DNA of 64,000 nucleotides from Escherichia coli. GTDB lineage: Bacteria > Pseudomonadota > Gammaproteobacteria > Enterobacterales > Enterobacteriaceae. The position numbers were made by a program, and so were the translations under genes. Below are positions 62,000-63,144 of this stretch, piece after piece (positions within the stretch are counted from its first letter, which is position 1; each line of letters starts with the position of its first letter). Location of the stretch: NCBI RefSeq assembly GCF_041886205.1, contig NZ_CP169029.1. One strand, written 5' to 3'. Under the pieces are notes generated by a model that saw only the letters and a list, made by a program, of their open reading frames with translations, searched no databases and was not told where the DNA came from.

Positions 62000-62338
62000 C
62001 TATTTCCCTGAATTTACGACGAAACTGTTCGAGCGGGCTGAAGCACTCATGCTCATAGCCTTCGCGGAGGTAGATAACCCGTTGTGTTTCCGGTTCCCAA
62101 CGAATGACTCTGACGGGCACTCCGTAGTGATCTTTGAACCAGCGGTTAACTTGTTGCAAAGGACTGTCTCCTTCTGCCGGTTGAAATCACCCACAGCCCA
62201 CTCTGCAAAGCTGTGGGTTACAATTTCCCTGTCACCTGGTACATTCACTGCATAGCAATACTCCACCTTCGCTTTTCCACCCGGTACAGGAAGCGCAATC
62301 AGTTGCGAGCGACGGTAGTGTGTTGTTAAACTGTTCAT
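62000..62338 (-). CDS. Hypothetical early-operon protein
   Basis: 112-aa ORF tightly coupled between YdaT-like gene and replication gene. Confidence 0.4.
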
Positions 62339-62919
62339 GCGTTAGTTTCTCCACAACCAGAAGCAATCGACGCCACGACGCCCGGAGCTGCACACTCGCG
62401 GGCGTTACTCTTTTCCGGCGCACAAAAAACACGAAATAACAGTGTTAAATGCTCCTGCCACTTCGCCATTACTTGGTAGCTGTTCTCTTCGATTTGCTCA
62501 CGCTCAGCCTGGTCAATAACTCCATCAGCAGTTGCCTTGCGTAAGTACTGGGAATGCTTGCCAATCCATTCTATTGACTCCATCAGCCGCTGATTAATGT
62601 CACCATTGTCAATGTCATCAATGACCACCAGCGGCACAAACACCCCATTACTACGACGGGCTATTGCATCTGTTACATGCCTGGTACCACTGGCATCCTG
62701 TAAAACCATGGCCCACTCAAGTGGAAAAATTTGATCCCCACCGCTACGCAGTCTGTTATGCAATTGATCTTTTGCTGGGGTGATATCATCAGATTTATAC
62801 AAACCAAGAATTTCTGCTGCTTCCTCATAGCCATGAGGTAAATCAGCAATCGTTCTTCGTATTGCTGCCACCAGCCATGCTGGTTGTTTATCAACTTTCC
62901 ATTCAGGTTCTTTACCCAC
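62335..62919 (-). CDS. YdaT-like protein (cII-position early regulator)
   Basis: 194-aa ORF directly downstream of Cro/YdaS-like gene. Confidence 0.45.
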
Positions 62920-62946
62920 GGTTAATTCCTCATTTCTGTGGTGTTT

Positions 62947-63144
62947 TTATGCCGCAGCACTGTTAGTCTTTTGATATAAAGACACGTCAACTTTCAGTTT
63001 CCCGTTAGTAATTTTTTCTAACTGGTACGCTCGGCCTTCAGGAATAATCTCAGGCCACTCTGAAACAGACGGATGCTTAATACCTAGGGCTTCGGCGGTT
63101 TTACAAACTCCGCCGAAATAATTAATCACGTCGGATTTCCGCAT
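62947..63144 (-). CDS. Cro/YdaS-like HTH repressor
   Basis: 65 aa, HTH (GGVCKTAEALGIKHPSVSEW); divergent from cI across operators. Confidence 0.7.
   Translation of the reverse strand: MRKSDVINYFGGVCKTAEALGIKHPSVSEWPEIIPEGRAYQLEKITNGKLKVDVSLYQKTNSAAA

What the first reader, a model, noticed from the sequence alone, without database searches (positions are those of the whole stretch)
62000..63144. Cro/YdaS-like gene followed by a YdaT-like gene and an unknown 112-aa ORF in the cII position
The YdaS/YdaT pair has been described both as an early regulator pair and as a possible toxin-antitoxin-like module in the Rac prophage. The extra 112-aa ORF between it and the replication gene has no obvious assignment.
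Basis: inference. Interest (0 to 1): 0.3.

Follow-up and report, generated by a model that had tools for sequence, protein, structure and literature searches.

The report
Known prophage operon hiding overlapping genes
The three ORFs are the ordinary early operon of an e14-like E. coli prophage (Cro, the CII-position regulator YmfL, and the known cell-division inhibitor YmfM/SfiC), but the last 160 bases of ymfM also carry, in another reading frame, a conserved RgdR-type small gene, and comparison across phages indicates that both frames are kept by selection.

Summary
**Observation:** confirmed. Three minus-strand ORFs sit at the stated coordinates.

**Interpretation:** only partly right.
- The 65-aa ORF is a P22-type Cro. 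It just reaches Pfam's cut-off for YdaS.
- The 194-aa ORF is not YdaT-like. It belongs to the YmfL family (NCBIfam, 181 bits) and occupies the cII position.
- The "unknown" 112-aa ORF is YmfM. It is 96% identical to E. coli K-12 e14 YmfM (SfiC), a published inhibitor of Z-ring formation.
- No evidence supports a toxin-antitoxin module.

- ymfM codons 60-112 overlap, in another frame, a 59-codon DUF4222 gene (61980-62159).
- That gene has its own Shine-Dalgarno sequence and a TTG start.
- It is 41% identical to the EHEC regulator RgdR.
- RefSeq annotates one gene or the other, never both.

**Comparative evidence on the overlap:**
- DUF4222 is the frame constrained at the amino-acid level (dN/dS about 0.1).
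- The ymfM frame nevertheless stays free of stop codons in 25 of 27 diverged lineages, where about 2 are expected.
- Its stop sits at one conserved site, 9 nt before the in-frame replication-gene ATG.

**Open point:** the published ymfM clones contain both genes, so the assignment of SfiC to the 112-aa product has not been tested frame by frame.

**Verdict:** the genes are known. The dual coding appears to be undescribed.

The parts
63240..63893 (+). CI/LexA-like prophage repressor (HTH_3 + Peptidase_S24), transcribed divergently. Context for the operon.
   Evidence: Pfam HTH_3 at 1e-15 and Peptidase_S24 at 4e-25. PGAP names it 'LexA family protein' in 99.8%-identical genomes.
63176..63205 (-). 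PR-like sigma-70 promoter (TTGACA, 18-nt spacer, TACATT) that would drive cro-ymfL-ymfM. It is overlapped by an 18-bp near-palindromic operator, ATGTAGGATATCCAACAT, at 63177-63194.
   Evidence: The promoter scan matches 10 of 12 positions. Operator copies lie at 63177-63194, 63224-63241 and 63956-63973, with a partner arm at 63978-64000. These are consensus matches only.
62947..63144 (-). cro: a 65-aa P22-Cro-type repressor, with a distant YdaS/DicC resemblance.
   Evidence: Pfam P22_Cro at 7.6e-22, YdaS_toxin at 31.6 bits (cut-off 30), PHROG 409. NCBIfam DicC is below its cut-off. It is unrelated to e14 YmfT.
62335..62919 (-). ymfL-like gene, 194 aa: the regulator in the cII position. Its TGA stop overlaps the ymfM ATG (ATGA, 62338-62335).
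   Evidence: NCBIfam NF041471 YmfL at 181 bits (cut-off 90). PHROG 101 'CII-like transcriptional activator' at 3e-62. Pfam Phage_CP76 at 28.8 bits (cut-off 26). 56% identical to e14 YmfL, with the last 22 residues identical. No similarity to YdaT.
62000..62338 (-). ymfM (sfiC), 112 aa. A conserved N-terminal module (residues 1 to about 60) is followed by a poorly conserved tail, predicted disordered, that is read through the DUF4222 gene in its +1 frame. The TAG stop is at 62002-62000.
   Evidence: 96% identical to K-12 YmfM. PHROG 1170 is matched full length at 1e-69. AF2 gives pLDDT 70-80 for residues 10-66 and below 50 for residues 68-112. dN/dS of the N-module is 0.23-0.57. The frame is kept open in 25 of 27 lineages.
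61980..62159 (-). Nested RgdR-family (DUF4222) gene of 59 codons, in the -1 frame relative to ymfM. It has a TTG start, with AAGGAG (62173-62168) 8 nt upstream. Its last 11 nt overlap the start of the replication gene.
   Evidence: Pfam DUF4222 at 6e-19 and PHROG 1343 at 9e-35. PGAP annotates it in RefSeq. dN/dS is 0.04-0.15. 41% identical to RgdR/ECs1581 at E=3e-11. The AF2 model has pLDDT 85 and an SH3/Tudor-like barrel fold.
60989..61990 (-). O-like replication initiator, 333 aa, in the same reading frame as ymfM. Its ATG lies 9 nt after the ymfM stop. It contains iteron-like repeats at 61558-61681.
   Evidence: PHROG 391 'replication initiation O-like' at 1e-133 and Pfam HTH_36. The tandem repeat is 4.1 x 30 bp. 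The frame and 9-nt spacing are conserved in at least 15 lineages.

Best explanation
This stretch is the repressor-controlled early-right operon of an e14/CPS-53-type lambdoid prophage of E. coli.

**Inferred operation**
- When the CI/LexA-like repressor is inactivated, transcription starts from a PR-like promoter in the cI-cro spacer.
- That transcript reads cro (a P22-Cro-type lytic repressor), then ymfL, then ymfM, then the O-like replication initiator.
- ymfL is a YmfL-family regulator with a phage 186 CII-like region. It sits where lambda has cII, and its stop overlaps the ymfM start.
- ymfM is the known SfiC function. Expression of the K-12 homologue abolishes FtsZ rings and makes cells filament, independently of SulA, SlmA and MinC. 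Derepression of the prophage would therefore arrest host division while phage replication begins.

**The added feature**
- ymfM is a composite. Only its first 60 or so codons encode a conserved folded module.
- Codons 60-112 run, one base out of register, across a separately initiated 59-codon gene. That gene encodes an RgdR-family (DUF4222) SH3/Tudor-like protein.
- The DUF4222 frame carries the amino-acid constraint.
- Selection nevertheless removes stop codons from the ymfM frame along the whole overlap. It also keeps the ymfM stop at one site, 9 nt before the in-frame replication-gene ATG.

**Shown:** gene identities, the overlap, and the selection signatures.

**Inferred:**
- Both products are made.
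- Either the tail matters, or ymfM-frame ribosomes need to be delivered to the replication-gene start.
- The promoter and operator assignment.
For: **Identities**
- Annotation of 99.8%-identical RefSeq genomes and of phage vB_EcoM-720R4 is.
- The K-12 e14 map is, and the 96% identity to YmfM.

**Function of ymfM**
- Ansari et al. and the expression screens PMC3614548 and PMC6206680.

**Nested gene**
- Pfam DUF4222 at 6e-19.
- An SD-like G-rich motif lies upstream of an ATG, GTG or TTG start in the lineages inspected.
- dN/dS is 0.04-0.15 in the DUF frame. In the same bases read in the ymfM frame the ratio is 1.8-9.7.
- RgdR is a DUF4222 protein and is 41% identical. Its regulatory activity was shown by Flockhart et al., PMC3378721.

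**Selection on the ymfM frame**
- It is open over 46 DUF codons in 25 of 27 clusters below 85% nt identity, drawn from 112 distinct sequences.
- Synonymous resampling expects 1.8-2.0 open clusters.
- The baseline is 13.6% of windows in real genes of the same loci.
- The +2 frame is open in 0 of 27 clusters.
- Val before an A-starting codon uses GTA/GTG in 4 of 52 cases, against 10 of 25 before C/T (p=0.001).
- Leu before an A-starting codon uses TG-ending codons in 2 of 15 cases, against 21 of 24 before C/T (p=6e-6).
- The first ymfM-frame stop falls at the same DUF residue in 15 clusters. It is made by seven different codon pairs.
- The replication ATG lies 9 nt later, in frame.
- RgdR itself has a closed +1 frame, so openness is not intrinsic to the family.
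Against: - No expression data exist here for either frame.
- The YmfM tail shows no amino-acid conservation and is predicted disordered. Its only detectable constraint is the absence of stops.
- The lineages are related, so the counts are not fully independent.
- Two lineages (Citrobacter phiNP and a Serratia prophage) have lost the open frame.
- The codon-aligned antisense frame is also open more often than expected: 26 of 27 clusters against 12.8-17.6. Some of the stop depletion may therefore have a compositional component.
- The promoter and operators are consensus matches only.
Confidence: 0.75

Rival explanations
1. Only the DUF4222 gene and a short upstream module are real. On this view the long 112-aa reading is an accident of a missing stop and its tail is meaningless. 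This is the view implied by PGAP, which annotates DUF4222 and omits ymfM.
For: - PGAP annotation.
- The tail is not conserved at the amino-acid level and is predicted disordered.
- Natural 63-aa frameshift variants and in-frame N-module::DUF4222 fusions exist.
Against: - The frame is open in 25 of 27 diverged lineages, against about 2 expected.
- Stop-making codon pairs are avoided in a context-specific way.
- The stop site is conserved and is made by different codons.
- Intact 112-aa clusters hold far more member sequences than the truncated ones: 1295, 300 and 96 against 3-5.
Confidence: 0.12
2. The filamentation (SfiC) activity assigned to ymfM is due, wholly or partly, to the nested DUF4222 protein rather than to the 112-aa product.
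For: - The original filamenting clone carried all of ymfM plus ymfN codons 1-92, and therefore the whole DUF4222 gene.
- The pBAD 'ymfM ORF' clone holds the DUF4222 SD, its TTG start and 53 of its 59 codons. That covers the whole Pfam domain.
- The ymfM deletion removes both genes.
- DUF4222 is the better conserved product.
Against: - The published work on RgdR reports changes in T3S and motility. The words filament, elongated and cell division do not occur in that paper.
- A TTG start is likely to be weak next to the vector-driven ATG of ymfM.
- The N-module is conserved as protein across genera.
Confidence: 0.15
3. A programmed -1 ribosomal frameshift joins the YmfM N-module to DUF4222, giving a fusion of about 119 aa alongside the 112-aa product.
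For: - The frame geometry fits a -1 shift.
- Natural in-frame fusions of 102-119 aa occur in assemblies (P0065, P0059, P0030, P0053).
Against: - There is no X XXY YYZ slippery heptamer between the DUF-frame stop and the DUF start, either in the window or in the Klebsiella-type sequence that was read by eye.
- The junction sequence is not conserved.
- The lineages inspected instead have an SD-like motif and a start codon for DUF4222.
Confidence: 0.04
4. The Cro-like and following gene form a YdaS/YdaT-type toxin-antitoxin-like module.
For: - The Cro-like protein just reaches the gathering score of Pfam family 'YdaS_toxin'.
- Ectopic expression of early lambdoid regulators can be toxic.
Against: - The second gene is not a YdaT homologue.
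- YdaS and YdaT are themselves argued to be Cro and CII analogues, not a TA pair.
- There is no PADLOC hit.
- The genes sit in a canonical immunity-region layout, with operators and a divergent repressor.
Confidence: 0.03

Closest known systems
e14 prophage early region of E. coli K-12 (ymfK / ymfT-ymfL-ymfM-ymfN; SfiC)
   Same: - Same gene order.
- YmfM is 96% identical and YmfL 56% identical, with an identical C-terminus.
- The same nested DUF4222 ORF is present, with 1 aa difference.
- The same junction to the O-like gene.
   Different: - The Cro is unrelated to e14 YmfT.
- The repressor and operators are of another specificity.
- The replication gene is intact here, whereas in e14 it is fused to a terminase fragment.
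YdaS/YdaT of Rac and CP-933P (Cro and CII functional analogues)
   Same: - Position: two genes divergent from the repressor.
- The Cro-like protein has weak YdaS similarity.
- Both second genes occupy the cII slot.
   Different: - The 194-aa protein has no detectable sequence relationship to YdaT.
- Rac has no ymfM or DUF4222 between ydaT and its replication gene.
RgdR (ECs1581) of EHEC cryptic prophage CP-933C
   Same: - It has a DUF4222 domain and is 41% identical over 49 aa.
- It is a small basic protein.
- Its gene lies immediately upstream of, and overlaps, the replication gene, here a primase.
   Different: - RgdR is 99 aa, with N- and C-terminal extensions.
- It sits in a P4-like satellite element.
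- It is not overlapped by another ORF, because its +1 frame is full of stops.
- Its RGD motif is absent here.
Lambda cro-cII-O and phage 186 CII (Pfam CP76)
   Same: - The operon logic is the same: a repressor-controlled promoter, then cro, then a lysogeny regulator, then the replication initiator with internal iterons.
- There is a marginal CP76 match.
   Different: - Lambda has nothing between cII and O.
- YmfL has no tested CII activity.
- The division inhibitor lies in the PR operon here, whereas lambda kil lies in the PL operon (established knowledge).
Out-of-frame nested phage genes (for example lambda Rz/Rz1 and the phiX174 overlaps; from established knowledge, not tested here)
   Same: Two proteins are read from the same bases in different frames. 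One frame is strongly constrained, and the other is disordered and fast-evolving.
   Different: - Here the overprinted part is only the C-terminal tail of the longer gene.
- That tail shows no sequence constraint beyond staying open and ending at a fixed site next to the following gene's start.

Membership tests
Cro (Pfam P22_Cro PF14549) | Sequence match above the curated cut-off | tested here: met
   77.3 bits against a cut-off of 30.2, covering residues 2-59 of 65.
Cro (Pfam P22_Cro PF14549) | First gene of the operon divergent from the prophage repressor, with shared operators in the spacer | tested here: met
   There is a 95-bp spacer to the repressor gene. It holds repeated 18-bp near-palindromes and a promoter-like site. 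Binding was not tested.
YdaS (Pfam PF15943) | Sequence match above the curated cut-off | tested here: met
   Marginal: 31.6 bits against a cut-off of 30. 33% identity over 43 aa to K-12 YdaS, E=5e-6. The P22_Cro model fits far better.
YdaT (Pfam PF06254; the POU-like CII analogue of CP-933P and Rac) | Sequence similarity to YdaT | tested here: not met
   No Pfam YdaT hit at E<=0.1. BLASTP against K-12 YdaT gives a best E of 5. No PDB sequence hit to YdaT.
YdaT (Pfam PF06254; the POU-like CII analogue of CP-933P and Rac) | Gene immediately downstream of cro, in the cII position | tested here: met
   The gene order is cro then the 194-aa gene. This shows analogy of position only.
YmfL family (NCBIfam NF041471) | Equivalog model score above the cut-off | tested here: met
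   181.2 bits against a cut-off of 90. 56% identical to e14 YmfL. PHROG 101 at 3e-62.
Phage 186-type CII (Pfam Phage_CP76 PF06892) | Sequence match above the curated cut-off | tested here: met
   Marginal: 28.8 bits against a cut-off of 26, covering residues 67-153.
Phage 186-type CII (Pfam Phage_CP76 PF06892) | Activates lysogeny promoters | not testable with these tools
   No activity data exist for YmfL. Ansari et al. report only that its expression does not cause filamentation.
YmfM / SfiC cell-division inhibitor | Full-length sequence identity to E. coli K-12 b1148 | tested here: met
   108 of 112 residues identical, with no gaps. All 4 differences lie in residues 62-98, within the overlap.
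YmfM / SfiC cell-division inhibitor | Synteny: between ymfL and the O-like gene, under the prophage repressor | tested here: met
YmfM / SfiC cell-division inhibitor | Expression blocks Z-ring formation and causes filamentation | not testable with these tools
   Shown for the K-12 gene only. Those constructs also contained the nested DUF4222 gene.
DUF4222 / RgdR family (Pfam PF13973) | Sequence match above the curated cut-off | tested here: met
   67.8 bits against a cut-off of 27, covering model positions 3-52 of 53. 41% identical to RgdR. hhalign probability 97%.
DUF4222 / RgdR family (Pfam PF13973) | Evolves as a protein-coding gene with its own translation start | tested here: met
   dN/dS is 0.04-0.15. 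AAGGAG lies 8 nt before the TTG here, and the relatives inspected have SD-like motifs and start codons.
DUF4222 / RgdR family (Pfam PF13973) | Acts as a transcription co-regulator (LEE1, motility) | not testable with these tools
   Known only for ECs1581 and C1493. The RGD motif needed there is absent here.
Type II toxin-antitoxin module | A two-gene operon in which one product neutralises the other and the pair autoregulates its own promoter | not testable with these tools
   No family evidence: PADLOC gives none. The layout is a canonical immunity region. The literature argues against TA status for YdaS/YdaT.
Programmed -1 frameshift site | A slippery heptamer (X XXY YYZ) in the zero frame at the frame junction, conserved among relatives | tested here: not met
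   The junction in the window and in the Klebsiella-type sequence was read codon by codon and no heptamer was found. The junction sequence is not conserved across the 14 lineages displayed.

The most novel reading that the evidence does not exclude
ymfM/DUF4222 is a true dual-coding locus conserved across enterobacterial lambdoid phages.
- The C-terminal half of the SfiC division inhibitor is overprinted on an RgdR-family regulator gene.
- Both frames are translated.
- Selection keeps the ymfM frame open and makes it end 9 nt before the in-frame replication-gene ATG. That would couple division arrest, a small regulator and replication initiation in about 340 bases.
- As a corollary, the 35-year-old SfiC phenotype has never been assigned to one of the two products, and the nested protein may contribute to it.
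Probability: 0.55. Interest if true: 0.55.

Novelty: new member of a known kind. Interest (0 to 1): 0.36.

Why it matters
As flagged, the finding is ordinary. It is a known prophage early operon, and its "unknown" ORF is the published division inhibitor YmfM/SfiC.

Three things are worth keeping.
- **Annotation conflict.** The K-12 reference record and some phage records annotate ymfM only. PGAP annotates DUF4222 only. The comparative evidence says both are real.
- **A clean natural example of overprinting.** It carries an unusual signature: no amino-acid constraint on the tail, but strict avoidance of stops and a fixed termination site.
- **A caveat on the SfiC assignment.** Every construct described so far contained both genes. 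Two single-base changes, each silent in one frame, would settle which product arrests division.

ymfM is SOS-induced and has been discussed in the context of UPEC filamentation. Knowing the real effector therefore matters for work on filamentation.

Tried and rejected
**Hypotheses rejected**
- Programmed -1 frameshifting at the junction. No slippery heptamer is present, and DUF4222 has its own SD and start codon instead.
- "Openness is intrinsic to DUF4222." RgdR's +1 frame has many stops.
- "Openness is general codon-pair bias." Only 13.6% of equal-length windows in real genes of the same loci are open.
- "Phylogenetic inertia." Third positions at the risky Val and Leu codons switch between C and T among lineages but avoid G and A.
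- "A 63-aa natural YmfM." PHROG 20047 and proteins P0063, P0066 and P0076 are frameshift variants that run into the third frame. They are not an alternative stop.

**Searches that gave nothing**
- PDB sequence searches with YmfL and with the YmfM and DUF4222 profiles.
- PADLOC.

**Practical dead ends**
- The first viral-contig scan returned only near-identical e14-type loci. It was repeated with distant sequences listed first.
- Mehta et al. 2004 (PMC331406) and the supplementary primer tables of Ansari et al. are not held. The exact 3' end of the pBAD-ymfM insert was therefore taken from the text ("the open reading frame").
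Full report
**1. What is in the sequence**

On the minus strand, the ORF listing finds three ORFs.
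- 62947-63144: 65 aa.
- 62335-62919: 194 aa, GTG start.
- 62000-62338: 112 aa.

They run away from a divergent 217-aa HTH + Peptidase_S24 repressor (63240-63893, +). They run towards a 333-aa O-like replication gene (60989-61990).

The spacer between the repressor gene and the 65-aa ORF holds a sigma-70-like site on the minus strand. Its elements are TTGACA at 63205-63200, an 18-nt spacer, and TACATT ending at 63176. That site is overlapped by an 18-bp near-palindrome, ATGTAGGATATCCAACAT (63177-63194). The palindrome recurs at 63224-63241 and, beyond the repressor gene, at 63956-63973, with a partner arm at 63978-64000. These are consensus matches, not demonstrated sites.

The 1.3-kb stretch is 99.2-99.8% identical in the listed E. 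coli genomes. It is partly present in 2678 of 5426 complete genomes, and in phages such as vB_EcoM-720R4 and SKA5.

**2. Identities**

The 65-aa protein is a P22-type Cro.
- Pfam P22_Cro gives 7.6e-22.
- It also just reaches the YdaS_toxin model, at 31.6 bits against a cut-off of 30.
- It aligns with K-12 YdaS at 33% identity over 43 residues.
- It is unrelated to e14's own Cro, YmfT.

The 194-aa protein is a YmfL-family member.
- NCBIfam equivalog NF041471 scores 181 bits against a cut-off of 90.
- PHROG 101, "CII-like transcriptional activator", scores 3e-62.
- It has a marginal match to the phage 186 CII family CP76.
- It is 56% identical to e14 YmfL, and the last 22 residues are identical.
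- It shows no similarity to K-12 YdaT or to the Pfam YdaT model.

"YdaT-like" therefore holds only as an analogy of position.

The 112-aa ORF is YmfM. 108 of 112 residues are identical to K-12 b1148, which RefSeq calls "cell division inhibitor YmfM".
- Ansari et al. showed that pBAD-ymfM abolishes Z rings.
- It gives filaments of about 57 um, independently of SulA, SlmA and MinC.
- ymfM accounts for the SfiC phenotype of e14.
- ymfL expression has no such effect.
- Earlier expression screens hit the same region.

The toxin-antitoxin idea is not supported here. It has also been argued against for the real YdaS/YdaT pair. PADLOC finds nothing.

**3. The nested gene**

A 59-codon ORF (61980-62159, TTG start) lies inside ymfM in the -1 frame. 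It matches Pfam DUF4222 (6e-19) and PHROG 1343.
- AAGGAG (62173-62168) sits 8 nt before the TTG.
- PGAP annotates this ORF and omits ymfM in the RefSeq genomes.
- The K-12 record and some phage records do the opposite.
- Two Klebsiella-type phage records annotate only an antisense ORF across this stretch.

DUF4222 has one studied member, RgdR (ECs1581) of the EHEC cryptic prophage CP-933C.
- It is a small protein that raises LEE1 transcription and lowers motility.
- It binds DNA without sequence specificity (PMC3378721).
- I confirmed that RgdR matches DUF4222 at 2e-23, and that it is 41% identical to the window protein, with hhalign probability 97%.
- Like the window gene, rgdR lies directly upstream of, and overlaps, a replication gene.

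**4. Which frame is real? Both, apparently**

tblastn shows that the YmfM N-terminal 59 residues and DUF4222 are each conserved as protein in Klebsiella phages. The identities are 61-63% and 82-86%. The two lie adjacent and in different frames.

Pairwise Nei-Gojobori estimates are as follows.

| Region and frame | dN/dS |
|---|---|
| YmfM N-module | 0.23-0.57 |
| Overlap, read as DUF4222 | 0.04-0.15 |
| Overlap, read as YmfM | 1.8-9.7 |

Substitutions sit at DUF third positions, which are YmfM second positions.

The YmfM tail therefore has no amino-acid constraint. AlphaFold predicts residues 68-112 to be disordered, while residues 10-66 form three strands and two helices at pLDDT 70-80.

The ymfM frame nevertheless stays open. 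I assembled 196 loci from several sources.
- Phage records.
- IMG/VR.
- One genome per species.

They gave 112 distinct DUF4222 core sequences in 27 clusters below 85% nt identity.
- The frame +1 relative to DUF4222, which is the ymfM frame, has no stop over 46 codons in 25 of the 27 clusters.
- Resampling synonymous codons with local codon usage expects 1.8-2.0 open clusters.
- In real genes of the same loci, 13.6% of such windows are open.
- The +2 frame is open in none.

The avoidance depends on context.

| Codon context | Stop-prone codon used | p |
|---|---|---|
| Val before an A-starting codon | GTA/GTG in 4 of 52 | |
| Val before a C/T-starting codon | GTA/GTG in 10 of 25 | 0.001 |
| Leu before an A-starting codon | TG-ending in 2 of 15 | |
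| Leu before a C/T-starting codon | TG-ending in 21 of 24 | 6e-6 |

- At Val16, GTG or GTA appears only when the next codon begins with C.
- The third positions do switch between C and T, so this is not inertia.
- The stop-making cases that I read in the aligned sequences (CTG-AAC and GTG-ATC in Citrobacter phiNP, GTA-GAC and GTG-ATT in the Serratia prophage) lie in the two lineages that have lost the open frame.

Conversely, in 15 clusters the first ymfM-frame stop falls at the same DUF residue. It is made by seven different codon pairs (ATA-G, ATA-A, TTA-A, CTA-A, GTA-G, GTA-A, GTG-A). These are exactly the pairs avoided upstream.

RgdR's own +1 frame is full of stops, so the property is not intrinsic to the family.

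**5. Architecture around the overlap**

- The ymfL stop and the ymfM start overlap as ATGA (62338-62335).
- The ymfM stop (TAG, 62002-62000) lies 9 nt before the replication-gene ATG (61990).
- That ATG is in the same frame as ymfM.
- This frame and spacing recur in at least 15 clusters, including those with a different replication module.
- DUF4222 ends 11 nt inside the replication gene.

The upstream modules are diverse: the YmfM type plus three other types. All begin M-N-S-L, at a mosaic joint shared with the ymfL 3' end, and all read through DUF4222 in the same frame.

In SfV, ST64B and Hafnia phage yong2 the same frame runs on without a stop into a Phage_ASH (plus or minus Rha) protein.

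**6. Mechanism**

Shown:
- the gene identities;
- the overlap;
- strong purifying selection on DUF4222;
- moderate purifying selection on the YmfM N-module;
- selection against stops, and for a fixed stop, in the ymfM frame.

Inferred:
- On repressor loss, the PR-like promoter expresses cro, ymfL, ymfM with DUF4222, and the replication gene.
- YmfM blocks Z-ring assembly, as its K-12 homologue does.
- DUF4222 is translated from its own SD and TTG, and acts as an RgdR-like small regulator or cofactor.

Why the ymfM frame must stay open is not settled. I see two readings.
- A tail of about 50 residues, of any sequence, is needed for YmfM activity or turnover.
- ymfM-frame ribosomes must reach the replication-gene ribosome-binding site, as in termination-reinitiation.

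The fixed stop 9 nt before an in-frame ATG favours the second reading slightly.

**7. A caveat on the literature**

- The original filamenting clone carried ymfL codons 142-185, all of ymfM, and ymfN codons 1-92.
- The pBAD clone carried "the open reading frame" of ymfM. That includes the DUF4222 SD, its start and 53 of its 59 codons.
- The deletion removes both genes.

The assignment of SfiC to the 112-aa product has therefore not been tested frame by frame. I still favour YmfM, for two reasons. The RgdR paper never mentions filamentation. The N-module is conserved as protein.

No paper in the held library links ymfM with DUF4222. A search combining ymfM with overlap-related terms listed no ymfM paper among its top 15.

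**8. Verdict**

The dual-coding ymfM/DUF4222 arrangement is real in the sequence. It is strongly supported as selected, and it appears to be undescribed. It is a modest but testable addition.

Noticed in passing
window 61558-61681: There are 4.1 tandem copies of a 30-bp unit (8.3 copies of a 15-bp unit, CAGATTTTGACGGGT) inside the O-like replication gene. They encode an SDASKSDPSK repeat. These are probably the origin iterons, as in lambda O.
   Followed up: partly
window 63177-63241 and 63956-64000: The 18-bp near-palindrome ATGTAGGATATCCAACAT recurs on both sides of the repressor gene. The layout looks like OR and OL operator sets, with a TTGACA hexamer at the window end. A perfect hairpin (63914-63936), followed by a T run, lies after the repressor gene.
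   Followed up: partly
window 61983-62255 (+ strand): A 90-aa antisense ORF lies across the ymfM/DUF4222 overlap. This codon-aligned antisense frame is stop-free in 26 of 27 lineages, against 12.8 expected, or 17.6 given that the ymfM frame is open. Two Klebsiella-type phage records annotate it as a CDS. It is probably a shadow ORF caused by the lack of TTA, CTA and TCA codons, but the excess is not fully explained.
   Followed up: partly
window 62325-62405: A mosaic joint. Stx2c-type phages share the cro + ymfL block (window 62325-63240) at 99% identity. SfII/SfIV/e14-type phages share 61900-62405 at 96-98%. The two blocks overlap at the ymfL 3' end and the ymfM start. This explains why unrelated upstream modules all begin MNSLT.
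   Followed up: partly
proteins P0065, P0059, P0030, P0053 and P0063/P0066/P0076 (relatives of window 61980-62338): Public assemblies hold rare single-base frameshift variants. Some are in-frame YmfM-N::DUF4222 fusions of 102-119 aa. Others are 63-aa truncations that run into the third frame, and these make up PHROG 20047. They could be sequencing errors or inactivating mutations of a toxic gene.
   Followed up: partly
L010 (SfV orf37), L009 (ST64B sb41), L012 (Hafnia phage yong2): In these phages the frame that overlaps DUF4222 continues without a stop into a Phage_ASH (plus or minus Rha) domain protein. The annotated Ash/Rha genes therefore contain the whole DUF4222 gene, out of frame, near their 5' ends. 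Where those proteins really start is unclear.
   Followed up: partly
window 60172-60992: Downstream of the replication gene lie a PerC-family activator (YfdN-like, 60498-60992) and a 119-aa protein consisting only of a LexA DNA-binding domain (60172-60531). The closest relatives have an N6-adenine methyltransferase gene between these two, which this window lacks.
   Followed up: no
L113 (Erwinia), L116 (Providencia), L012 (Hafnia): In distant DUF4222 lineages that lack an upstream YmfM-like module, the +1 frame is still open. It begins with its own ATG (MKT... or MKL...), embedded in a conserved (C/A)ATGAA motif a few codons into the DUF4222 gene. This suggests a fully nested second ORF there.
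   Followed up: no
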